12,976 nt of DNA from a virus. Lineage: Duplodnaviria; Heunggongvirae; Uroviricota; Caudoviricetes. Each line of letters opens with the position of its first letter. Positions within the stretch are counted from its first letter, which is position 1. Where the stretch lies: the IMG/VR virus record IMGVR_UViG_2778261571_000007; one strand, 5' to 3'. The position numbers were made by a program, and so were the translations under genes. The notes below the pieces were generated by a model, which was given only the letters and a program-made list of their open reading frames with translations, was not told where the DNA came from and did not search any database. Below are positions 1 to 12,403 of this stretch, piece after piece.

Positions 1-28
1 AGGGACAGCTGATAGAAACAGAAGCCAC
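1..28 (-). CDS. insA: InsA (IS1) 5' fragment, cut by the window edge
   Basis: The reverse complement of 2-28 reads GTG GCT TCT GTT TCT ATC AGC TGT CCC, i.e. M-A-S-V-S-I-S-C-P, the InsA N-terminus. A GAGG Shine-Dalgarno lies upstream on the minus strand. Confidence 0.75.
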
Positions 29-83
29 TGGAGCACCTCAAAAACACCATCATACGCTAAATCAGTAAGTTGGCAGCATCACC
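1..83 (-). mobile_element. IS1 insertion sequence, terminal 83 bp (insA-proximal end), element continues leftward past the window edge
   Basis: Bases 1-83 are the reverse complement of the IS1 end as I recall it (GGTGATGCTGCCAACTTACTGATTTAGTGTATGATGGTGTTTTTGAGGTGCTCCAGTGGCTTCTGTTTCTATCAGCTGTCCCT), with one mismatch at window position 56. The terminal inverted repeat ends at 83 (...GCATCACC). Confidence 0.9.
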
Positions 84-223
84 CAAACAACGCTTATTAT
101 TAAAAGCGGTTAAACAAATTAAATTTTAATGTTATGCAAATTTGTCAGATCACCATAATATCTCATTTGAAAACCGCTGAAATAACAATCCTATCAGGAT
201 TAATCATATTAAGGTGAGTAAAT

Positions 224-418: not shown

Positions 419-574
419 TTACTCCTCAGGTTCGTAAGCTGTGAAGACAGCGACCTCCGTCTGACCGGTTCGGATTCGCACCTCGCAGAGGTCTTTCCTC
501 GTTACCAGTGCCGTCACTATGACGGTTAAACAGATGACAATCAGTGCGACTAACATCGCCTTTTGCTGCTTCAT
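419..574 (-). CDS. hok: Hok/Gef family type I toxin (51 aa, small membrane-damaging peptide)
   Basis: The translation MKQQKAMLVALIVICLTVIVTALVTRKDLCEVRIRTGQTEVAVFTAYEPEE matches the Hok/Gef signature (N-terminal transmembrane helix, conserved RKDLCE...R.G..EVA.F.AYE) and is near-identical in pattern to E. coli HokC/HokD as I recall them. ATG at 572-574 has a GGAG Shine-Dalgarno upstream. Confidence 0.9.
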   Translation of the reverse strand: MKQQKAMLVALIVICLTVIVTALVTRKDLCEVRIRTGQTEVAVFTAYEPEE

Positions 575-631
575 AGCCTGCTTCTCCTTGCCTTCCGGCG
601 CGTAAGAGGCTAACCTACATGTGCAAAGCAT
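419..631 (-). CDS. Mok-like in-frame upstream extension of hok (70 aa), putative translational-coupling ORF
   Basis: The ORF starts at the ATG at 631 and reads in frame into hok. Its N-terminal extension MLCTCRLASYAPEGKEKQA resembles the MokC extension pattern. Whether it is translated is not determinable from sequence. Confidence 0.45.
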   Translation of the reverse strand: MLCTCRLASYAPEGKEKQAMKQQKAMLVALIVICLTVIVTALVTRKDLCEVRIRTGQTEVAVFTAYEPEE

Positions 632-1294
632 GAAATTGGCCTCAGATTAATGTTAAGCGTCTTGCCGGACGCGTAATGTTATCTGGGGCTTTTCTCTATC
701 TGCCTTTGGTGTTCATGCCTGAGGCAGATAGCCTCAAGCACCCGCAGCAATTCTACTTAACTCCCGTCACCTCGCCAATATAAAATCAATCAGAAAGGCG
801 ATCCATAAGAACAACAGCAAGACAATAAATTGCCATTACAGCCGCAATAGCTAGCGCACATTTGAGAACCAGCACGACAACCTCCTGTATTGGACGTACA
901 CCAGTTCTGATAAATATGAGGCTGTCTCATCATTGATTCAATATAACTATTGGGTATAGTTTCTGTGATTTTGTTCTGTAGAAATGGAACACAACAACCA
1001 GTCACCACCAGCACTTCTTTAAATACGCCAAGTCCGACGCAAGCTAACCTTCTAGTCCGCTTTGAGCGAGGAGCGGACCAAACCCGGCCAACTGACTCTT
1101 AAAGGGGCCGCAGGAATTTTTCGTCTGAACTTTCGAAGCTCCTCTCCCTGAAGACAGAAAACTTCTGTGTGCTGTGGGAATATTGAATCTTTGCCTTAGA
1201 TATAAATAATTTTATCCCGCCTGAAGTTTACATTATTTTATTTATCTGTTTTTCTAAATCAGACTGCACTCCTTACTTAAATCAGGAGCCAGTC

Positions 1295-2494
1295 ATGCCA
1301 TTTGTTATTTATGTGTTTACTATCAGTGCCTTTGCGCTCGGACTCGCGGAATTTGTCCCCATTGGGCTGACAGACGTTATGGCTCAGGGGTTGTGTGTGG
1401 GTGTGGAGCAGACCGGGGCAGCGGTTACAACCTATGCACTGGGGGCAACGTTCGCGGCACCCGTACTGTCTGCGCTGACAGCAAGCTGGAGCCGGAAAAA
1501 TGTAATGCTTACAACTGCCGTTGTGTTTACTGCCGGTAGTCTGGCGGCCGCGTTTGCAGCCACATTACCTCAGCTCCTGTTAGCGCGGTTCATTGCTGGT
1601 CTGGGACACGGCCTGTTTCTGGCTGCGGCATCCAGTACCGCAGCTCGTCTTGCTGGACCGGGTAAAGCAGGCAGAGCGGTGGCTGTGGTATTTGGTGGCT
1701 TTACTCTGGCGATGGCAATCGGCGTACCGCTGAGTACATGGTTGGGGGGGGTGGTCTCATGGCGTCCAGTTCTCGGCGCTATTGCCGCTTTTGGCGCGTT
1801 CGGATTCCTTGGACTGTTGTTCGGTATGAAAGATCCCGTACGCAGCGTGCCCGGTGAACATAGTGACTCAGCAATGCAGAATATCGGCATGCTGTTTAAC
1901 CGTAAGTTGCTGGCCGGCGCGCTGGTTACGGTGCTGGCGTATGCAGGCTCGTTTACGGATTACACCTTTATCGCACCTATTCTGACGCAGGTGACAGGGG
2001 TTACCGGAGCAACGGTGAGTCTGTTTATGCTGGTTTACGGTATTACAGCTGCGGTAGGTAATATTCTTGGTGGGAAACTTACCGACAGCATGGGGGTTAA
2101 TCGTGCCAATATACTCATCATTAGCGGCATTGTTGTTGTCGTGCTTGGTATGTGGCTGCTGTCATCCTCACCGGTGAGCATGGGCATTCTGGTTGCGCTG
2201 CTGGGTATGGTGACATTTGCCGCAGTGCCGGCACTGCAGGCCCGTCTGATTGGTGTCGCTGAGCAACATGCTCCTCATGCGCATGGTGTTGCTGCCGGCC
2301 TGAATATTGCGGGCTTCAACTCAGGTATAGCGCTGGGATCAGTACTGGGCAGCATTACTATAAGCCACGCCGGTATCGTGTATACCGGTATCAGCGGTGC
2401 GATTGTTTCTCTGCTCGGCCTGCTGTTGCTGCTTGCACAAATCCGTCGCAGCCACAGTCGTAAATTTCAACAGGTTAAAATCGTAGGCCAGTAA
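1295..2494 (+). CDS. MFS transporter, DHA1-type efflux pump (SotB/YdeA/NepI-like), 399 aa
   Basis: The protein is highly hydrophobic with a 12-helix-like pattern. It has an N-terminal EFVPIGL motif and a loop G(x)GKAGRAVAVVFGGFTLAMAIGVPL that align to the SotB-type sugar/purine efflux family. A GGAG Shine-Dalgarno lies 8 nt upstream. Confidence 0.88.
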   Translation: MPFVIYVFTISAFALGLAEFVPIGLTDVMAQGLCVGVEQTGAAVTTYALGATFAAPVLSALTASWSRKNVMLTTAVVFTAGSLAAAFAATLPQLLLARFIAGLGHGLFLAAASSTAARLAGPGKAGRAVAVVFGGFTLAMAIGVPLSTWLGGVVSWRPVLGAIAAFGAFGFLGLLFGMKDPVRSVPGEHSDSAMQNIGMLFNRKLLAGALVTVLAYAGSFTDYTFIAPILTQVTGVTGATVSLFMLVYGITAAVGNILGGKLTDSMGVNRANILIISGIVVVVLGMWLLSSSPVSMGILVALLGMVTFAAVPALQARLIGVAEQHAPHAHGVAAGLNIAGFNSGIALGSVLGSITISHAGIVYTGISGAIVSLLGLLLLLAQIRRSHSRKFQQVKIVGQ

Positions 2495-2505
2495 AGGGAG
2501 GTTAT

Positions 2506-3198
2506 ATGCTTACCCGTGAAAATATGCTTAATGGCACATTTGTCAGGGTGCATGAAGCGCTGCTCCCGGCGAATATGCTCTGGGACGCTGAAAAAATACG
2601 CGCATCAATGAACTCTACTCTGGAGGAGCGCCCGACGGGTGCTCCTGTCTGGATATTTGCCTACGGGTCATTGATGTGGAATCCCGTGCTGGCGATTGAA
2701 GAAATGCAACGGGCCCGTCTGAAAGGATTGCAGCGCAGTTTCTGCATTCGTTTGATATCCGGACGAGCGACTCCTGATGTCCCCGGCAGGATGTTATCGC
2801 TCGACGAAGGTGGAATTACCGAAGGTATTGCGTTCAGACTGCCGGAATCGACTCTTATTAATGAGCTGGAAATTGTCTGGACGCGCGAGATGATAACCGG
2901 TCTTTACCGTCCGGTCTGGGCAGACGTTTCGCTAGGAAACGGTGAGGAAATTCAGGCGCTGGCTTTCGTATCAGACAGACTGCATCCGCATTATGAACAG
3001 GACAATCTTACAGCGACCGTAGCGTTGAGCATCGCATCTGCCCGTGGAGACATTGGCACGAATGCAGATTATGTATGGAAACTGCAGGCCACTCTGGGTG
3101 CGTTGGGAATACGGGATGATTACGTGAGTGAACTGGCCCTTGCTCTGCATGAGGCTCCCTGTAACGATAAACTTCATCAGCGAGGCGCTTCACTATGA
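2506..3198 (+). CDS. ChaC-like gamma-glutamylcyclotransferase (glutathione-specific GGCT family), 230 aa
   Basis: The translation carries the hallmark YGSLMWNP motif and aligns along its length to E. coli ChaC as I recall it (e.g. PVWIFAYGSLMWNP, FC(I/L)RL, GRMLSLDEGG, WTREMITG). A strong AGGGAGG Shine-Dalgarno lies upstream; the gene starts 12 bp after the MFS stop. Confidence 0.85.
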   Translation: MLTRENMLNGTFVRVHEALLPANMLWDAEKIRASMNSTLEERPTGAPVWIFAYGSLMWNPVLAIEEMQRARLKGLQRSFCIRLISGRATPDVPGRMLSLDEGGITEGIAFRLPESTLINELEIVWTREMITGLYRPVWADVSLGNGEEIQALAFVSDRLHPHYEQDNLTATVALSIASARGDIGTNADYVWKLQATLGALGIRDDYVSELALALHEAPCNDKLHQRGASL

Positions 3199-4076
3199 GC
3201 CATCTGAGCCATCTGCGAACGTTTCTTGAGGCCTATCGCTCTGGCTCCTTTTCAAAGGCGGCAGAACTACTGGGCATCACTCAGCCCGCGGCGTCACAGC
3301 ATATCCAGTCTCTTGAGACTCTGGTTGGTAAGCGTCTGTTTATCAGGCAGGCCAGAGGCGTGACGGCAACCGAAGCTGCGGATGAGCTTGCCCGCTCAGT
3401 TTCACCCTTCATTGATGGTCTGGAAGAAAAGCTGTCCTCTTTCCGGTCAGGCTCTGTACGCGGGGGAACAATTAATCTGGCAGGACCGCCAGATTTTATT
3501 CATTCCCGGCTTGGGACAGTAATGGCTCCACTAATGAAGGAGGGGTATCGCCTACGCTTTCATACCGGCAATAAGCAACGTATTTATTCCCTTTTGCATG
3601 ACGGGAGCGCCGATCTCGCTGTTACCGCATCTATGCCTGATGACCGTCTGTACGGCTATGCACATCTACTGACTGAACGCATGCTCCTTGTTCATGCTCC
3701 CGCCATGTCAGAGATCATCGGATCAGAACCTGGTGCTGAAACGCTTGCCTCATTACCGCTGATTGCTTATGACGAAGAGTTGCCACTGATTAGAGCGCTC
3801 TGGGCCTCCATGTTTCAGAGAGCCCCTGAGATGCAGGCTACATTCACCATTCCGGATTTACGTATTATCCGCGACTTGGTCTGTGACGGCCACGGGTGGA
3901 CAGTGCTGCCGGATTATCACTGTGACAATGACCTGAAAAGTGGTCGCCTGATTTCAGTGACACCTGCAGACCTCGCTCCGACTAATCATCTTTATCTGGT
4001 CTGGAACAAAAGGACGGCTAATAACAGCCGAACCGCCTATGTTCGGGATTACATTCTTAAAACGTTTCCGCGTTGA
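3195..4076 (+). CDS. LysR-family transcriptional regulator, 293 aa
   Basis: The N-terminus has the LysR helix-turn-helix signature (LRTFLEAYRSGSFSKAAELLGITQPAASQHIQSLE), and the length and C-terminal domain are typical of the family. The start codon overlaps the ChaC-like stop (ATGA), implying co-transcription. Confidence 0.9.
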   Translation: MSHLSHLRTFLEAYRSGSFSKAAELLGITQPAASQHIQSLETLVGKRLFIRQARGVTATEAADELARSVSPFIDGLEEKLSSFRSGSVRGGTINLAGPPDFIHSRLGTVMAPLMKEGYRLRFHTGNKQRIYSLLHDGSADLAVTASMPDDRLYGYAHLLTERMLLVHAPAMSEIIGSEPGAETLASLPLIAYDEELPLIRALWASMFQRAPEMQATFTIPDLRIIRDLVCDGHGWTVLPDYHCDNDLKSGRLISVTPADLAPTNHLYLVWNKRTANNSRTAYVRDYILKTFPR

Positions 4077-4120
4077 TGTTTGAAACGGATGATTGGCGAT
4101 GCGTATCATAAGTTACGTAT

Positions 4121-4150
4121 GTCCGCTTCTGGCACAAAGCAGACGCCCAC
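4121..4150. repeat. Copy A of a 30-bp imperfect direct repeat (GTCCGCTTCTGGCACAAAGCAGACGCCCAC)
   Basis: 24 of 30 positions match copy B at 7794-7823 in the same orientation. It lies in the convergent intergenic gap between the LysR gene and the DUF2254-like gene. Confidence 0.6.
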
Positions 4151-4206
4151 TCTCACGCGAATGCTTTGCCCTTGACTTGCCAACAACCGTATCGCTTGCT
4201 CCGCAA

Positions 4207-5484
4207 CTATGGTTTTTTATTAGAATCTTCGCCACTAAATAAATTATAATAAATTGATTTTATTAGATATCTGTCAGAATCTATATGGTCAGCACGAGTA
4301 GCATGCTCTAATGTTTCAAATGCTAGGGTTTGTGCGGCTTCAGCAAAAATTCCAGGCCAACCCTTACTCAGCATCGACAGTCCTTTAAGTACCCTTATCT
4401 GAATTTCCCTCATACTGGCACCATCGCGCGCAACAGGTGAGAAAAAGTCTTCAAGTAGATCGTTATTCTGAAGTGGTGCAACATGTACAGAAGGATATTT
4501 CACTTCTATTTCATCAGATTTATTCTGCGCGTAAGCGGAAAGTATACGTACACCTCTGCCAATGACATCAATGGCGGTTCCAGGATCGTTCACTGCGGGG
4601 GAAAGGGCTCGGCAGGCTATTTCGGCCATGACGCTAAGACAAAATCGGGGGTCCTGAGCAAATGAACGTACATCCGAGACAATAATCGTCTCAAGTAAAT
4701 CGGTGCTGATTGATGACTCCTGGCCCTGACTCAGGTACAAAACTGGCGTGGACGGATGTATGAAACTGCCCGGCTGCGCCACGAGGTATACATGACGGGG
4801 ATCATTGGTCAGCAGCTTGCTGAGTTTCACCATATCAACATATTCAACATAGCCAATCTTTTTCGGATAAACTGCAACCGTTCCTTTCGGCTGTTCATTG
4901 TTCTCAAGCCATGGATATCCGCCGAGACAGGGATTTCTTGCTCTCGCAATAAATGTTTCGATGGCCGCCTGTTCTACTTTTGCCGTTGTCTCACCAACCC
5001 TCCCCAGAGAGGTCAAATGCTGTATCCAGCGAAGCAATGTGATGAGGATTAAGGCAATGACAACCAGTGTTACAATGAATAAAATGACTCTCCCCCTTTC
5101 TCCATAAGCTCCCATATTGAGGGCAATAATCCCTACCAGACTGAAGAGAAAAGAACCGATGAAGGTGGCCAGTACATTTTGTGTGGTGACGTCTTCAACA
5201 ACTAAACGAGTAGCTCTGGGAGTCACATTAGTAGTGGCTGAACCGTAGGCTGTGACCATGATGCTCAGCGAAAATGTGGTCACTGCCAGCATACTCGATG
5301 CCAGTATGTTCAGAATGTTATCGACTGCTTCCGCACCAACCTTCACGGAAACCGACTCAGGTATCATTGATTTAAAAAGAATTGATAAAAGGGCCGTTAT
5401 TATTGCGACAATTGCGAATAACGTTGCCCTGAACCATAGTTTTTTAAATGTCTGCTTCAGCATCCATTTCCAGCGTGAAATCAT
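4207..5484 (-). CDS. Integral membrane protein with a large C-terminal soluble domain, DUF2254-like, about 425 aa
   Basis: A long ORF with N-terminal transmembrane segments and a conserved-looking SPAVNDPGTAID motif. The start is probably the ATG at 5482-5484 (GAGGGA Shine-Dalgarno 9 nt upstream); the ORF track's ATG at 5499 has no Shine-Dalgarno. The family assignment is from memory and moderately certain. Confidence 0.8.
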   Translation of the reverse strand: MISRWKWMLKQTFKKLWFRATLFAIVAIITALLSILFKSMIPESVSVKVGAEAVDNILNILASSMLAVTTFSLSIMVTAYGSATTNVTPRATRLVVEDVTTQNVLATFIGSFLFSLVGIIALNMGAYGERGRVILFIVTLVVIALILITLLRWIQHLTSLGRVGETTAKVEQAAIETFIARARNPCLGGYPWLENNEQPKGTVAVYPKKIGYVEYVDMVKLSKLLTNDPRHVYLVAQPGSFIHPSTPVLYLSQGQESSISTDLLETIIVSDVRSFAQDPRFCLSVMAEIACRALSPAVNDPGTAIDVIGRGVRILSAYAQNKSDEIEVKYPSVHVAPLQNNDLLEDFFSPVARDGASMREIQIRVLKGLSMLSKGWPGIFAEAAQTLAFETLEHATRADHIDSDRYLIKSIYYNLFSGEDSNKKP

Positions 5485-5509
5485 TCTGCATTCCCTCATA
5501 TTGCAGCCG

Positions 5510-5541
5510 GGATAAATAAATGCCGCCTCTGTGGCGGCATG
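5510..5541 (-). terminator. Rho-independent terminator downstream of the BetT-like gene
   Basis: On the minus strand: ATGCCGCC-ACAGA-GGCGGCAT (8-bp GC-rich stem) followed directly by TTTATTTAT, starting 7 nt after the BetT-like stop. Confidence 0.7.
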
Positions 5542-5547
5542 TTGCTG

Positions 5548-7551
5548 TTAACGAACCAGATGCAGGAAGTGCAGGTGTTTTTCGTACTGGTCCAGTATGT
5601 CATTAATCAGCTGTTCCTGATTCCAGCCCATTACATCATAATTTTGGCCGCCCTCTTTGAGATAGACTTCAGCGCGATAATATCGATGTTGTTCACTCTG
5701 CTGCTCATCATTATCCAGCGCAGCGAGCGCGAAGGTCGGTGAGTTATACCCGCGAAGCCTCACTTCATATATATAATTCAGCTCGTTGCCCAAATCGACT
5801 TCAAGGCGAATACGATCCTCGGCGGCGTCACTGATGTGGCTTATCGTTCCCTGCTTGTTAAGTTCCTCCTGAACCAGCGTCATGGCGGGTTGGATAATGT
5901 CGTCCATAAAACGTTTCACAAGAGAGCGCTTCGGCAAATACGCGATATTGCGTAACCTTCTCTGCCAGGGAATTGGGTTACGTGCAGCCGTAGGAGCAAT
6001 AGTCGCCATGCTAAGGCTTTCACGTTTGGTCAAATCCCGACGCAGGGCTTTTAACAGTCCGTATATGGATATTAATAAGATAACTGAGAAGGGCAATGCA
6101 CTCGCTATCGTTACGGTTTGCAACGCACTCAGCCCCCCTGCGATCAGCAGGGCAATAGCAACAACGCCCATGAGCGATGCCCAGAAAATTCGCTGCCAGA
6201 CGGGCGTGTTTGCCACCCCACCTGATGCCAGAGTATCCACAACCATTGCCCCCGAATCAGCAGACGTTACAAAGAAGACGATGACCATCGCCATTGCAAT
6301 GAATGACAGCACGGAAGAGAACGGGAAATGCTCCAGGAAATTAAACAGGGCAAGCGCAACATCCTGCTGAACGGTATTGGCGAGGTCAGTGGCGCCCTGG
6401 TTCATGATGAGATAGATGGCGCTGTTTCCAAACACCGTCATCCACATGAGCGTAAAGCCGGCGGGAACAAACAACACGCCAGTCACGAACTCACGAATTG
6501 TCCTGCCGCGGGAAACGCGTGCAATGAACATACCTACAAACGGCGACCATGAAAGCCACCATCCCCAGTATAATAATGTCCAGCCCCCCAGCCAGTTGCT
6601 CGACTTGGGTTCATACGCGTAAAGGTTGAACGTTTTACTCACCAGTTCCGACAGATAACCACCCGTATTTTCCACAAATGACTTCAGCAGAAGCACAGTG
6701 GGACCCAGGCACAAGACCAGCGCCAGGAGCAACACCGCCAGGCCCAGATTAAGCTCAGACAGGATGCGTATTCCCTTGTCCAGGCCGGACACCACCGAAA
6801 TCGTCGCTAACCCCGTGATGACCACGATCAAAATGACCTGTACCGTTTCATTGATGGGCACGCCGAAAAGATGGTTCAAACCGGCATTCACCTGCAATAC
6901 ACCGTAACCCAGCGATGTTGCAACGCCAAAGACAGTGCCTATCACGGCGAAGATATCAACCGCGTGGCCTATAGGCCCGTAAATGCGATCGCCGATAATG
7001 GGATAGAGCGCAGAACGCAGCGTTAAAGGCAGACCGTGACGGTAACTGAAAAAGGCCAGAATCAGCGCCACGATGGCATAAATTGCCCATGCGTGCAGAC
7101 CCCAGTGGAAGAACGTCAGGCGCATGGCTTCCTTCGCTGCCGCAACGGTCTCTGGAGTGCCGACAGGTGGCGAAAGATAATGCATCACAGGTTCGGCAAC
7201 GCCAAAGAACATCAGGCCGATCCCCATCCCTGCCGAAAAAAGCATCGCGAACCAGGAGTGGTAGCTGAAATCAGGCTGCGCATGGTCTGGGCCCAGCTTT
7301 ATATCACCGTAACGTGAGAGTCCAAGGAACGTGACGCTCAGTAAAATCAGGGCCACAGCAAGTATGTAGAACCAGCTGGCATTCGTGAAGATTTGTTGCT
7401 GAAGTAGTTTAAAATTTTTGTCGGCGACATCCGGGAATACGGCGGCAAAGGCGACAAGAAGGAAAATTAGCAAAGCAGATGTAAAGAATACCGCTTTGTT
7501 AATCTGGCTTGTAGACTTCTTTGGGGTTGTATCATTTTCACTCATAATCAT
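5548..7551 (-). CDS. BCCT-family transporter, BetT-like (choline/betaine/carnitine family), 667 aa
   Basis: The translation aligns throughout with E. coli BetT as I recall it (e.g. KLGP(E/D)..P(E/D)FS..SW.AMLF.AG.GI.LMFF.VAEP, WSPFVG(M/L)F(I/L)ARISRGRTIR(E/Q)FV, VTSADSGA) and includes a long C-terminal cytoplasmic tail. No betI/betB/betA genes are adjacent. Confidence 0.9.
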   Translation of the reverse strand: MIMSENDTTPKKSTSQINKAVFFTSALLIFLLVAFAAVFPDVADKNFKLLQQQIFTNASWFYILAVALILLSVTFLGLSRYGDIKLGPDHAQPDFSYHSWFAMLFSAGMGIGLMFFGVAEPVMHYLSPPVGTPETVAAAKEAMRLTFFHWGLHAWAIYAIVALILAFFSYRHGLPLTLRSALYPIIGDRIYGPIGHAVDIFAVIGTVFGVATSLGYGVLQVNAGLNHLFGVPINETVQVILIVVITGLATISVVSGLDKGIRILSELNLGLAVLLLALVLCLGPTVLLLKSFVENTGGYLSELVSKTFNLYAYEPKSSNWLGGWTLLYWGWWLSWSPFVGMFIARVSRGRTIREFVTGVLFVPAGFTLMWMTVFGNSAIYLIMNQGATDLANTVQQDVALALFNFLEHFPFSSVLSFIAMAMVIVFFVTSADSGAMVVDTLASGGVANTPVWQRIFWASLMGVVAIALLIAGGLSALQTVTIASALPFSVILLISIYGLLKALRRDLTKRESLSMATIAPTAARNPIPWQRRLRNIAYLPKRSLVKRFMDDIIQPAMTLVQEELNKQGTISHISDAAEDRIRLEVDLGNELNYIYEVRLRGYNSPTFALAALDNDEQQSEQHRYYRAEVYLKEGGQNYDVMGWNQEQLINDILDQYEKHLHFLHLVR

Positions 7552-7793
7552 TTATTCCATTAATTAAATCCGCACTGGATAGAAGGTACTACCTCTCACA
7601 GAGTAGCAAAGTTCAACTGGCTATGCGGGGTTAATCGGAATGCATGGTGGAATGAGTGCCGATACAAATCATCCTATATTCTAAGGAGTTTTAAGTTACT
7701 CAGCCTGCCAATTACTGGGGCATTTAATTTGTATGATCTGTATCAAAGCTGGGATATAAGTTAAGTGAAGTATATTAGGCACGAATTACCAGC

Positions 7794-7823
7794 GTCTGCT
7801 CTTGGCACAAAGCGGACAACCAC
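7794..7823. repeat. Copy B of the 30-bp imperfect direct repeat (GTCTGCTCTTGGCACAAAGCGGACAACCAC)
   Basis: Matches copy A (4121-4150) at 24 of 30 positions. It lies between the BetT-like start and the end of the phage 140-aa gene. Confidence 0.6.
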
Positions 7824-11741: not shown

Positions 11742-11958
11742 ATCAATAACTCTCAACTGTAAGGGTATTGAAATGTTAACACAAGCTCTCGCTGTAGGGG
11801 TATAGCCGAGACCACCGAAGCCCGGAGGTGGTGAAATAAAACCGGGCACAACACGAAGGCGCATTTCCGATATCCATAAAGAGTCGGTCTTGTCTGTTAA
11901 ATTTAAATGGTGGAGTGCGCCTCCGGTTGTAAATAACGACATTGCTGTGTGTAGTCCT

Positions 11959-12009
11959 GGCGGCATCAGTTTTTTTCTTGAAGTTCGGCTGATGTCCGCC
12001 CTTTTTAAA
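11959..12009 (+). terminator. Strong hairpin (11-bp stem with one bulge, 19-nt loop) followed by CTTTTTAAA; candidate intrinsic terminator or regulatory RNA structure between sieB and kilR
   Basis: GGCGGCATCAG at 11959-11969 pairs with CTGATGTCCGCC at 11989-12000, followed by CTTTTT at 12001-12006. Confidence 0.4.
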
Positions 12010-12181
12010 GTGAATTTTGTGATGCGGTGAATGCGGCTAAGCGCACGTGGCACAGTTAAAAGTCATGTTAGTCCTTATTGGTTTGGGTGGGAAAGCCGAC
12101 TGTAATTGTTAACTGGTTGCAGTCACCTGGAGGCACCAGGCACCGCATCAACAAAGTTCATTTGTAAAAATGGAGATAATT

Positions 12182-12403
12182 ATGATTGCACATCACTTCG
12201 GAACTGATGAAATACCACGTCAGTGTGTGACTCCTGGCGATTATGTTCTTCATGAAGGCCGGACATATATTGCCTCGGCAAACAATATTAAAAAGCGAAA
12301 ACTATATATTCGTAACCTGACCACAAAAACATGCATTACTGACCGCATGATTAAAGTCTTCCTCGGTCGTGATGGTTTACCTGTAAAGGCGGAGTCATGG
12401 TGA
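12182..12403 (+). CDS. kilR: KilR-like cell-division (FtsZ) inhibitor, 73 aa
   Basis: ATG at 12182 has a GGAGA Shine-Dalgarno 5 nt upstream; the ORF-track start at 12170 lies inside that Shine-Dalgarno. The length (73 aa) and position (next to sieB, followed by the small zinc-finger ORF and the RacC-like gene) reproduce the Rac order kilR-ydaE-racC. The sequence [14 protein letters not shown]... is consistent with my recollection of KilR. Confidence 0.7.

What the first reader, a model, noticed from the sequence alone, without database searches (positions are those of the whole stretch)
4207..7551. Orphan BetT-like transporter without betIBA, paired with a membrane protein of unknown function
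The BCCT transporter is clearly BetT-like, with a long C-terminal tail, but is not linked to the betI/betB/betA genes that accompany betT in E. coli. It is followed by a terminator and then a DUF2254-like membrane protein. The pair may be an osmolyte or quaternary-amine uptake module acquired as cargo next to the prophage, analogous to trkG in the Rac prophage.
Basis: partly seen in the sequence, partly recalled or inferred. Interest (0 to 1): 0.4.

Follow-up and report, generated by a model that had tools for sequence, protein, structure and literature searches.

The report
BetU betaine transporter cassette in Rac
The "orphan BetT-like" gene is almost certainly betU, an already described accessory E. 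coli transporter that takes up betaines under salt stress. It travels with a membrane protein of unknown function as a 3.7-kb cassette sitting inside the Rac prophage.

Summary
On the minus strand, 5548-7551 encodes a 667-aa BCCT transporter with a long C-terminal domain. A terminator-like hairpin follows, then a DUF2254 membrane protein (4207-5484/5499).

- The window is E. coli, and the pair lies inside the Rac prophage, about 13 kb from trkG, not beside it.
- A genome with a 100% identical pair region has the normal betT-betIBA locus 1.09 Mb away. This is therefore a second paralogue, not a displaced betT.
- It matches betU, the betaine-specific osmoregulatory transporter of Ly et al. 2004. 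The two genes match the cargo of Tn6062, which was cloned as a pair and makes S. Typhi grow in 0.8 M NaCl (Holt et al. 2011).
- Its substrate-site motif is that of the betaine transporter BetP (AGMGIGLMF). It lacks both acidic residues proposed for proton coupling in choline-type BetT. The RefSeq name "choline BCCT transporter BetT" is therefore probably wrong.

DUF2254 has no known function and no structural relative. It recurs next to betaine-type BCCT, NhaA and ClC genes, but is IS-disrupted in many E. coli.

The finding itself is already known.

One unexpected result: the pair is bounded by 24-nt palindromic sites. These sites mark a variable cargo slot in lambdoid prophages that elsewhere holds anti-phage defence systems.

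The parts
5548..7551 (-). betU: BCCT-family osmoregulatory betaine uptake transporter. The transmembrane domain spans residues ~15-513 and the BetT-type cytoplasmic C-terminal domain ~525-667. RefSeq start is 7545.
   Evidence: Pfam BCCT 661.7 bits and NCBIfam BetT subfamily 752/695. 42% identity to K-12 BetT. 646 bits to P. syringae BetT 8ybq, including the C-terminal domain. TM3 AGMGIGLMF, S213, and Trp prism W331/W332/W335. Tn6062 primer match and expected amplicon length.
5510..5540 (-). Intrinsic-terminator-like hairpin (AUGCCGCC-ACAGA-GGCGGCAU followed by UUAUUUAU) in the 63-nt gap between betU and the DUF2254 gene. It is probably a partial terminator.
   Evidence: Terminator scan, sequence, fold. 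There is no room for a separate promoter before the DUF2254 start. In a related Klebsiella plasmid, RPKM was 54 for BetU and 16 and 4 for the two downstream ORFs. The identity of those ORFs was not checked.
4207..5484 (-). DUF2254 membrane protein (425 aa; the ORF is open up to 5499). It has four predicted N-terminal transmembrane helices and a ~250-aa alpha/beta domain, inferred here to be cytoplasmic. Function unknown.
   Evidence: Pfam PF10011 310.6 bits. Alignment A1 with invariant motifs RSFxQDPRF and RALSPxxNDPGTAID. AF2 model with pLDDT 79, above 90 for residues 170-425. No PDB sequence or fold relative.
4121..4144 (.). 24-nt palindromic boundary site (type A), GTCCGCTTCTGGCACAAAGCAGAC, at the DUF2254 end of the cassette.
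   Evidence: Homology with plasmids (from 4119), Kluyvera (from 4117) and the leuX-island copy (from 4125) begins here.
7794..7817 (.). 24-nt palindromic boundary site (type A), GTCTGCTCTTGGCACAAAGCGGAC, at the betU-upstream end of the cassette, about 70 nt downstream of the DUF977 gene.
   Evidence: Homology with plasmids ends at 7818 and with Kluyvera at 7815. The same site occurs with the same right flank but 14 different left flanks in other prophages.
7552..7793 (-). betU upstream region that travels with the cassette and presumably holds its promoter, which was not identified.
   Evidence: It is included in the plasmid and Kluyvera units. The first ~100 nt are also kept in the leuX-island copy (to 7654) and in the Tn6062 clone (to ~7620). 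The sigma-70 scan found no good match on this strand.
1055..1078 (.). Related palindromic site (type B, spacer GAGCGA), GTCCGCTTTGAGCGAGGAGCGGAC. It marks the far end of the cargo slot.
   Evidence: B...A brackets recur in 46 places in viral contigs.
1295..4076 (+). Neighbouring cargo module in the same slot: MFS transporter (1295-2494), ChaC-like gamma-glutamylcyclotransferase (2506-3198), LysR regulator (3195-4076). It is convergent with the betU pair and is not part of the plasmid-borne unit.

Best explanation
The transporter is BetU, an accessory E. coli BCCT transporter that imports glycine betaine and proline betaine when external osmolarity is high.

Inferred from homologues:
- It works as a trimer with the LeuT-type fold.
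- The substrate's trimethylammonium group sits in a tryptophan prism (W331, W332, W335).
- The unwound TM3 stretch carries the BetP-type AGMGIG motif, which suits a betaine carboxylate rather than choline.
- The ~150-residue BetT-type cytoplasmic C-terminal domain gates activity in response to osmolarity.
- Because the imported solute is already the osmoprotectant, no betA/betB oxidation step is needed. This explains the absence of bet genes.

The DUF2254 gene is probably transcribed from the betU promoter by read-through of a leaky terminator, and so at a lower level. Its role is unknown and is probably not required for uptake.

The two genes form a 3.7-kb unit (4119-7818) bounded by 24-nt palindromic sites. 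Here the unit occupies the variable cargo slot of the Rac prophage between hokD and the replication genes. The same unit, or IS-captured versions such as Tn6062, occurs on many enterobacterial plasmids, in a leuX island and in Kluyvera.
For: Shown here:
- BCCT and DUF2254 calls.
- Location inside Rac at ttcA, with trkG in the same prophage.
- Canonical betT-betIBA present 1.09 Mb away in a genome with a 100% identical pair region.
- Only 42% identity to K-12 BetT, which scores 1315 bits on the BetT model against 752 for this protein.
- TM3 AGMGIGLMF is identical to BetP. Gly112 sits at the EcBetT D108 / PsBetT T109 position, and Ser213 at the PsBetT D210 position.
- Trp prism and C-terminal domain are conserved. 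H90, R171 and E633 of the C-terminal/transmembrane domain interface are kept.
- The terminator-like hairpin.
- Unit boundaries at 4119-7818.
- The pair occurs on 1531 of 72,556 plasmids and in 1373 of 5426 E. coli genomes.

From papers:
- BetU is betaine-specific (PMC4411257).
- Tn6062 carries betU plus a second putative transporter. The two genes, cloned together, allow S. Typhi to grow in 0.8 M NaCl (PMC3139670).
- The gene-specific 3' part of one Tn6062 cloning primer matches 4217-4236 exactly. The core of the other lies at 7603-7616. That predicts a 3404-bp product, against 3405 bp published.

Inferred: trimer formation, osmotic gating by the C-terminal domain, coupling ion, read-through transcription.
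Against: - The deposited HU734 betU sequence and the Ly et al. paper could not be read. Identity with BetU therefore rests on Holt et al.'s equation of SPAP0106 with betU, plus one exact primer match. The second primer differs from the window at 4-5 of 22 positions, so Tn6062 carries a different allele.
- The protein passes the NCBIfam BetT (choline) subfamily cutoff and fails the betaine_BCCT equivalog cutoff (593 against 650).
- Overall it is closer to choline transporters (44% to PsBetT) than to BetP (38%).
- The trimethylamine transporter 8zw8 also has GMGIG, so the motif does not prove betaine specificity.
- No promoter was identified.
Confidence: 0.82

Rival explanations
1. It is a second choline transporter of the BetT type. 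It feeds choline to the chromosomal BetA/BetB pathway encoded elsewhere, as current RefSeq names on plasmids state.
For: NCBIfam BetT subfamily hit above cutoff (752 against 695). BetT-type C-terminal domain. The genome has betIBA to use the choline. Public names say 'choline BCCT transporter BetT'.
Against: Gly at the EcBetT D108 position and Ser at the PsBetT D210 position remove both proposed proton-coupling sites. The TM3 motif is identical to that of betaine transporter BetP. The score on the BetT model is barely above cutoff, against 1315 bits for real BetT. It also scores higher on the betaine model than BetT does (593 against 493). Reviews and Holt et al. state betaine specificity.
Confidence: 0.1
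2. DUF2254 is a functional partner of the betaine transporter, for example a regulator or a solute/ion release pathway. On this view the pair is a true two-component osmotic module.
For: - The pair is kept together in the Rac slot, the leuX island, at least 1462 plasmids and Kluyvera at 89-100% DNA identity.
- In Pluralibacter, BetU is 93% identical but DUF2254 only 68%, yet they remain adjacent.
- Among 80 DUF2254 loci from distinct species, 9 have an adjacent BCCT in at least 4 arrangements (Enterobacterales upstream, Pantoea eucrina downstream, Agrobacterium upstream, Aurantimonadaceae downstream). Four Pseudomonas loci have one within 6 kb.
- All of these BCCTs carry the betaine-type AGMGIG/ATSLG signature.
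- Other immediate neighbours include NhaA (6), ClC (7), Na/H exchangers (3) and MgtE (2).
- Both genes were present in the clone that conferred osmotolerance.
Against: - 67 of 80 DUF2254 loci have no BCCT nearby.
- The NhaA and ClC neighbours come mostly from one lineage, Pseudomonas.
- A terminator-like hairpin separates the genes.
- In many E. coli genomes DUF2254 is split by IS100 or ISVsa5 while betU stays intact.
- No experiment separates the two genes, and no fold or sequence clue to an activity was found.
- Tight linkage alone would keep two adjacent genes together on a small mobile unit.
Confidence: 0.3
3. DUF2254 is an unrelated hitch-hiker that merely lies next to betU on the mobile unit.
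For: IS-disrupted copies are common. Most family members sit in unrelated contexts. There is a terminator between the genes.
Against: Adjacency to betaine-type BCCT genes recurs independently in distant lineages and in both gene orders.
Confidence: 0.55

Closest known systems
BetU of uropathogenic E. coli HU734 (Ly et al. 2004, J Bacteriol 186:296; not readable here). This is the same gene as SPAP0106 of Tn6062 on IncHI1 PST6 plasmids of S. Typhi (Holt et al. 2011, PMC3139670).
   Same: An accessory E. coli BCCT transporter on mobile DNA that is present in only part of the species, 25% of complete genomes here. It is followed by a second membrane-protein gene. The gene-specific 3' part of one Tn6062 cloning primer matches exactly, and the amplicon length fits. 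The betaine-type binding-site signature is present.
   Different: Here the pair is not flanked by IS1 as in Tn6062. It is bounded by 24-nt palindromic sites inside the Rac prophage. The upstream Tn6062 primer does not match exactly, so the allele differs. I found no paper linking betU to Rac.
BetT, the choline:H+ symporter of E. coli K-12 (b0314) and of Pseudomonas syringae (PDB 8ybq)
   Same: Same BCCT fold. Same ~150-residue alpha/beta C-terminal regulatory domain. Conserved Trp prism. 42-44% identity over the full length.
   Different: No betIBA linkage. Gly112 replaces EcBetT D108, and Ser213 replaces PsBetT D210. The reported substrate is betaines rather than choline. The His and Asp residues that may coordinate a metal ion in PsBetT are replaced (Y630, N637).
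BetP, the glycine betaine:Na+ symporter of Corynebacterium glutamicum (PDB 2wit)
   Same: Identical TM3 core AGMGIGLMF. Ser at the TM5 position. Same Trp box and TM10 FFxTSADS. Both are osmotically regulated betaine importers.
   Different: Only 38% identity. BetP has a short helical C-terminal domain, whereas this protein has the BetT-type alpha/beta domain.
trkG in the Rac prophage
   Same: An osmoregulatory transporter gene carried as prophage cargo. It lies in the same prophage, about 13 kb away.
   Different: Different transporter family and substrate (K+). It sits in a different position in the prophage, in the lysis/tail region rather than the slot after the replication genes.

Membership tests
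BCCT family (Pfam PF02028 / TIGR00842) | Full-length match to the family profile above the curated cutoff | tested here: met
   PF02028 at 661.7 bits (cutoff 27), profile positions 1-485 of 485. TIGR00842 at 542.6 bits (cutoff 407.55).
BetT (choline:H+ symporter) | Score above the NCBIfam BetT subfamily cutoff | tested here: met
   752 against 695. This is marginal: K-12 BetT scores 1315.
BetT (choline:H+ symporter) | Acidic residue proposed for proton coupling (EcBetT D108 in TM3, or PsBetT D210 in TM5) | tested here: not met
   Gly112 and Ser213 occupy these positions.
BetT (choline:H+ symporter) | Genetic linkage to betI/betB/betA | tested here: not met
   No bet genes within 20 kb. The genuine betT-betIBA locus lies 1.09 Mb away in the same genome.
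BetT (choline:H+ symporter) | Long alpha/beta C-terminal regulatory domain | tested here: met
   Residues ~515-667 align with the C-terminal domains of EcBetT and PsBetT.
BetT (choline:H+ symporter) | Choline specificity | not testable with these tools
   Papers describe BetU as betaine-specific. An uptake assay is needed.
BetU (E. coli accessory betaine transporter) / Tn6062 cargo | Sequence identity with the published betU / SPAP0106-SPAP0105 pair | tested here: inconclusive
The gene-specific 3' part of primer IS1056-03 matches 4217-4236 exactly. The core of IS1056-04 lies at 7603-7616. The predicted product is 3404 bp against 3405 bp published. The full second primer does not match.
BetU (E. 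coli accessory betaine transporter) / Tn6062 cargo | Accessory gene on mobile DNA, present in only some E. coli | tested here: met
   1373 of 5426 complete genomes. Found in the Rac slot, the leuX island between IS3 copies, and plasmids.
BetU (E. coli accessory betaine transporter) / Tn6062 cargo | IS1-flanked composite transposon structure (Tn6062) | tested here: not met
   In this window the unit is bounded by palindromic sites, not by IS1. The only IS1 fragment is at 1-86.
BetP-type betaine:Na+ symporters | TM3 glycine motif AGMGIG and the Trp box | tested here: met
   The core AGMGIGLMF is identical, and the Trp box is conserved.
BetP-type betaine:Na+ symporters | Score above the NCBIfam glycine betaine BCCT equivalog cutoff | tested here: not met
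   593.5 against 650.
CaiT-type carnitine/gamma-butyrobetaine antiporters | Score above the CaiT equivalog cutoff, or closest similarity to CaiT | tested here: not met
   262.8 against 541. CaiT chains score 166-170 bits, the weakest BCCT hits in the PDB.
DUF2254 (PF10011) | Full-length match above the Pfam cutoff | tested here: met
   310.6 bits (cutoff 28.8), profile positions 3-366 of 368.
Integron gene cassettes (considered for the boundary sites) | attC sites with RYYYAAC/GTTRRRY cores and a nearby IntI integrase | tested here: not met
   The sites are 24-nt 9-6-9 palindromes with different sequences. No recombinase gene recurs within about 7 kb.

The most novel reading that the evidence does not exclude
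The betU-DUF2254 unit may be one cassette of an undescribed cassette-exchange system in lambdoid prophages and phage-plasmids.

The sites are 24-nt palindromes with 9-nt arms, consensus GTCCGCTTT / AAAGCGGAC, around a 6-nt asymmetric spacer. The spacer is GTGCCA in 'A' sites and GAGCGA in 'B' sites.

These sites bracket a variable slot just after the replication genes. Cargo in the slot is swapped, sometimes in tandem arrays. The exchange would be by a site-specific recombinase encoded elsewhere, or by short-homology RecET/Red recombination. Most cargo is anti-phage defence; here it is osmotic and transport cargo.
Probability: 0.3. Interest if true: 0.75.

Novelty: already known. Interest (0 to 1): 0.3.

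Why it matters
**For the finding as given:** it matters little, because BetU and the Tn6062 pair are published.

**Practical points**
- RefSeq and PGAP name this protein "choline BCCT transporter BetT" on more than a thousand plasmids and in many genomes. Literature and binding-site residues point to betaines instead. Metabolic models and plasmid-cargo surveys inherit this probable error.
- The pair is one of the commonest non-resistance cargo units on Klebsiella, E. coli, Shigella and Salmonella resistance plasmids. It confers salt tolerance, so it is relevant to plasmid fitness.
- DUF2254 remains a widespread, highly conserved membrane protein without a function. Its recurrent neighbours (betaine-type BCCT, NhaA, ClC) give a concrete hypothesis to test.

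**The more interesting lead:** the palindromic boundary sites may explain how cargo, including defence systems, is exchanged at one slot of lambdoid prophages.

Tried and rejected
- **Primary BetU paper.** Reading it by PMC id and by PubMed id failed.
- **pAKU_1 (AM412236).** Fetching it to compare SPAP0105/0106 failed, as the record is not in the collection.
- **PDB sequence search with DUF2254.** No hit at E up to 1.
- **Literature on DUF2254.** Only an AlphaFold knot survey, with no function assigned.
- **Source names for the exact proteins.** None says BetU. The look-up also merged both proteins into one cluster, which looks like a database artefact.
- **sigma-70 promoter scan upstream of betU.** No convincing site.
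- **Rfam on the window.** Nothing at the boundary sites.
- **Hybrid-palindrome argument.** I first argued that window sites 2 and 3 are hybrid palindromes formed by crossover between two perfectly paired sites. Counting 63 independent contexts showed no covariation between the two arms (C-G 36, C-A 12, T-G 10, T-A 0). I withdrew that argument, together with the hairpin-pairing reading.
- **Integron attC, XerCD/dif, IS ends and REP as identities for the sites.** Considered from memory. Sequences and architecture do not fit. None was formally tested beyond the integron features.
- **A recombinase gene near the sites.** None recurs within about 7 kb in 120 viral contigs.
- **Literature on the sites.** Three searches for a lambdoid cargo slot with such sites, or for betU in Rac, found nothing relevant.


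Full report
**1. What is in the window**

ORF listing shows two adjacent minus-strand genes exactly at the reported coordinates: 5548-7551 (667 aa) and 4207-5499 (430 aa).

The larger protein:
- It matches Pfam BCCT over the whole profile (661.7 bits).
- In NCBIfam it matches the 'choline BCCT transporter BetT' subfamily at 752 bits (cutoff 695).
- It scores 593.5 on the glycine-betaine BCCT equivalog (cutoff 650) and only 262.8 on CaiT (cutoff 541).

The smaller protein:
- It matches Pfam DUF2254 over the whole profile (310.6 bits).
- Alignment with 29 homologues, and the RefSeq annotation, put its true start at 5484 (425 aa).

Between the genes lies an 8-pair, G+C-rich hairpin followed by UUAUUUAU (5510-5540).

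**2. Where it comes from**

The region is E. coli. A 3.9-kb query around the pair is found at 100% identity in several complete genomes. At least 80% of it is present in 1373 of 5426 genomes.

In strain S171-1 the 44 kb around it is the Rac prophage at ttcA. The gene order runs:
- intR, xisR, recET, kilR, sieB
- repressor/cro-like genes, YdaT, a replication protein, DUF977
- BCCT, DUF2254, LysR, ChaC-like, MFS
- hokD, nin-type genes, lysis genes, trkG, pinR

So the pair is inside the prophage, about 13 kb from trkG, and no bet gene lies within 20 kb. The same chromosome carries a normal betT-betI-betB-betA locus 1.09 Mb away. The window gene is an additional paralogue. It is 42% identical to K-12 BetT over its full length, including the C-terminal domain.

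**3. Identity**

- A review from the Wood laboratory lists BetU beside BetT in E. coli. It states that BetT is choline-specific and BetU betaine-specific (PMC4411257).
- Holt et al. 2011 describe Tn6062 on IncHI1 PST6 plasmids of S. Typhi. It carries betU (SPAP0106), said to transport glycine betaine and proline betaine, plus a second putative transporter (SPAP0105). A 3405-bp fragment with both genes let S. Typhi grow in 0.8 M NaCl (PMC3139670).
- The gene-specific 3' part of their primer IS1056-03 matches the window exactly at 4217-4236.
- The core of IS1056-04 lies at 7603-7616. That predicts 3404 bp.
- The full second primer does not match, so Tn6062 holds another allele.
- A Klebsiella plasmid transcriptome paper annotates the homologue as 'Secondary glycine betaine transporter BetU' (PMC6286996).

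I could not read Ly et al. 2004 or fetch the reference sequences. My memory of that paper is that betU was isolated from pyelonephritis strain HU734 by complementation, and that betU and trkG distributions were compared. That recollection is marked as unverified.

**4. Substrate and mechanism**

The closest solved structure is P. syringae BetT (8ybq, 646 bits, aligned from residue 7 to 667). After it come a trimethylamine transporter, E. coli BetT without its tail, BetP, DddT and CaiT.

The PsBetT paper defines these features (PMC11323884):
- a choline-binding Trp prism (W327/W328/W331);
- a proton site D210, which contacts T109;
- EcBetT D108 at the T109 position;
- a frataxin-like C-terminal domain that autoinhibits the neighbouring protomer through H627, E630 and D634 contacting H87, R168 and R508.

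Mapping these onto the window protein:

| Feature | In the window protein |
|---|---|
| Trp prism | kept (W331/W332/W335) |
| EcBetT D108 position | Gly112 |
| PsBetT D210 position | Ser213 |
| TM3 core | AGMGIGLMF, identical to BetP |
| C-terminal domain | homologous throughout |
| H90, R171, E633 | kept |
| Putative metal ligands | replaced by Y630 and N637 |

For comparison, EcBetT has AGIGIDLMF in TM3 and PsBetT has AGISITLFF. A BetP G153D structure with choline bound exists (3P03; PMC3578728). From memory, that mutation confers choline transport.

K-12 BetT scores 1315 bits on the BetT model and 493 on the betaine model. The window protein scores 752 and 593.

My reading is a betaine importer built on a BetT-like chassis with an osmosensing C-terminal domain. 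The coupling ion is not determined. The trimethylamine transporter also has GMGIG, so the motif is supportive and not decisive.

**5. DUF2254**

The family is strongly conserved, at 50% identity or more across Enterobacterales, Pseudomonas, Alcanivorax, Rhizobiales and Burkholderiales. Invariant motifs occur both in the membrane part and in a soluble domain (RSFxQDPRF, RALSPxxNDPGTAID).

The AF2 model (pLDDT 79) shows four long N-terminal helices and a confident alpha/beta domain. I infer from the positive-inside rule that this domain is cytoplasmic.

No PDB sequence or fold relative was found. The only literature is a knot survey.

Among 80 loci from different species:
- A BCCT gene is the immediate neighbour in nine, in both gene orders and in distant lineages. 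A shorter BCCT lies within 6 kb in four Pseudomonas loci.
- All of these BCCTs have the betaine-type signature.
- Other immediate neighbours include NhaA, ClC channels, Na+/H+ exchangers and MgtE. The NhaA and ClC cases are mostly one Pseudomonas synteny block.

Against a required partnership:
- 67 of 80 loci have no BCCT.
- A terminator-like hairpin separates the genes.
- In many E. coli genomes DUF2254 is split by IS100 or ISVsa5 while betU is intact.

I rate a functional link as possible (about 0.3) and its nature as unknown.

**6. Mobility**

The pair occurs on 1531 plasmids, 1266 of them Klebsiella at about 93% identity. It also occurs at 99.8% on IncY and other plasmids of E. coli, Shigella, Klebsiella and Salmonella.

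| Context | Window coordinates shared | Identity |
|---|---|---|
| 99.8-99.9% plasmid copies | 4119-7818 | 99.9% (pPO125) |
| Kluyvera chromosomes | 4117-7815 | 90% |
| E. coli leuX island, between IS3 copies | 4125-7654 | 94% |

Both ends of the unit coincide with copies of a 24-nt palindrome, GTCYGCT-N10-AGCRGAC, at 4121-4144 and 7794-7817. A third, related copy lies at 1055-1078. That is three matches against 0.07 expected by chance. The third copy closes off the neighbouring MFS/ChaC-like/LysR module.

A lambdoid prophage without cargo has hokD next to DUF977.

**7. The boundary sites (side result, partly followed)**

- Usually one 'A' site (spacer TGGCAC) lies about 70-100 nt downstream of the DUF977 gene. 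Its right flank is constant, but there are 14 different left flanks among 52 cases. Overall, 53 left-flank clusters join 32 right-flank clusters.
- A 'B' site (spacer GAGCGA) lies 0.45-5.8 kb away. The 46 B...A brackets found fall into 26 cargo types, some in tandem arrays.
- Ten cargo proteins that I selected as likely defence genes all matched anti-phage defence families: Tmn, CBASS cyclase, PDC-S06, a TIR-like PDC-S35, DarT and DarG, Pycsar cyclase, PD-T7-1, and Hp1/Hp2.

So the betU unit sits in a cargo slot that is mostly used for defence systems.

The arms do not covary, so a hairpin is not supported. No recombinase gene recurs nearby. I found no paper on it. Both site-specific recombination and RecET/Red-type exchange through the short conserved sequence remain open.

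**8. Verdict**

The gene pair is real and is ordinary in the sense that it is already described (BetU; the Tn6062 pair). Interest in the finding itself is low.

Three leads are worth keeping:
- the probable misannotation of the transporter as a choline BetT;
- the unexplained DUF2254 partner;
- above all, the palindromic boundary sites of the prophage cargo slot.

Noticed in passing
window 1055-1078, 4121-4144, 7794-7817: There are three copies of a 24-nt palindrome, GTCYGCT-N10-AGCRGAC (0.07 expected by chance). They sit exactly at the edges of the two cargo modules. Homology with plasmid, Kluyvera and leuX-island copies of the betU unit breaks inside these sites. The architecture is 9-nt arms around a 6-nt asymmetric spacer: TGGCAC in sites 2 and 3, GAGCGA in site 1.
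   Followed up: partly
loci L087-L206 (viral contigs), e.g. L094:1149-2638, L106:477-4609, L166:9041-12384: The same sites bracket a variable slot next to the DUF977 replication-module gene in many lambdoid prophages. I found 26 cargo types in 46 brackets, some in tandem arrays. Cargo includes Tmn, a CBASS cyclase, DarTG, Pycsar, PD-T7-1, PDC-S06 and PDC-S35. No recombinase is nearby, and I found no paper on it.
   Followed up: partly
window 1295-4076 (+): A second cargo module shares the slot: an MFS transporter (best match Cmx/CmrA family, 207 bits, far below cutoff), a ChaC-like gamma-glutamylcyclotransferase and a LysR regulator, apparently forming one operon. Its function is unknown and it is not on the plasmids that carry betU.
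   Followed up: no
E. coli genomes H1, H3-H10: In many genomes with a 100% identical pair, the DUF2254 gene is interrupted by IS100 or ISVsa5 while betU is intact. This suggests DUF2254 is dispensable there.
   Followed up: no
L085:8001-11529 (NZ_CP048326.1): A second chromosomal home of the pair in E. coli is a leuX (tRNA-Leu) island, between IS3 copies and next to lpxM/virK/capU and fec genes. This allele is 94% identical to the window. Most E. coli carriers have an allele in the 90-95% identity band, like this one.
   Followed up: partly
RefSeq/PLSDB annotations: The protein is named 'choline BCCT transporter BetT' (gene betT) on plasmids and in most source names. In the E. coli chromosome records shown it is 'BCCT family transporter'. 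The literature and binding-site residues indicate a betaine transporter (BetU). The NCBIfam BetT subfamily cutoff (695) lets it through at 752 bits.
   Followed up: partly
L013:3887-7257 (Pluralibacter gergoviae): BetU is 93% identical to the window protein, but the adjacent DUF2254 is only 68% identical. The pair is therefore mosaic, yet the two genes stay adjacent.
   Followed up: no
L029, L039, L053, L054, L066, L079, L083 (Pseudomonas): There is a conserved synteny NhaA - DUF2254 - ClC channel. In some loci a short betaine-type BCCT lies a few kb away.
   Followed up: partly
L004:1119-5426, L005 (Kluyvera georgiana, K. ascorbata): Kluyvera chromosomes carry the same 3.7-kb unit at 90% identity with the same end points. 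A further B-type site lies 590 bp beyond it, after a truncated flavin oxidoreductase gene. This may be a source or a parallel recipient of the cassette.
   Followed up: no
window 428-583 (-) and 569-743 (-): A hokD toxin gene and its sok antisense RNA (Rfam RF01794, 116 bits) flank the cargo slot on the other side.
   Followed up: no
window 11946-12001 and 12003-12189 (+): There are sub-threshold Rfam matches to DicF (39.1 bits, gathering score 48) and STnc100 (35.5 bits, gathering score 47) in the immunity-region side of the prophage.
   Followed up: no
window 1-86: The left end of the window is the edge of an IS1 copy (97-99% identical to IS1A/IS1B in many records).
   Followed up: no
The exact-sequence look-up placed the BCCT and the DUF2254 protein in the same 90% cluster of 11,294 members. 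This is presumably caused by fused or mis-called ORFs in the collection. Cluster sizes for these two proteins should not be trusted.
   Followed up: no
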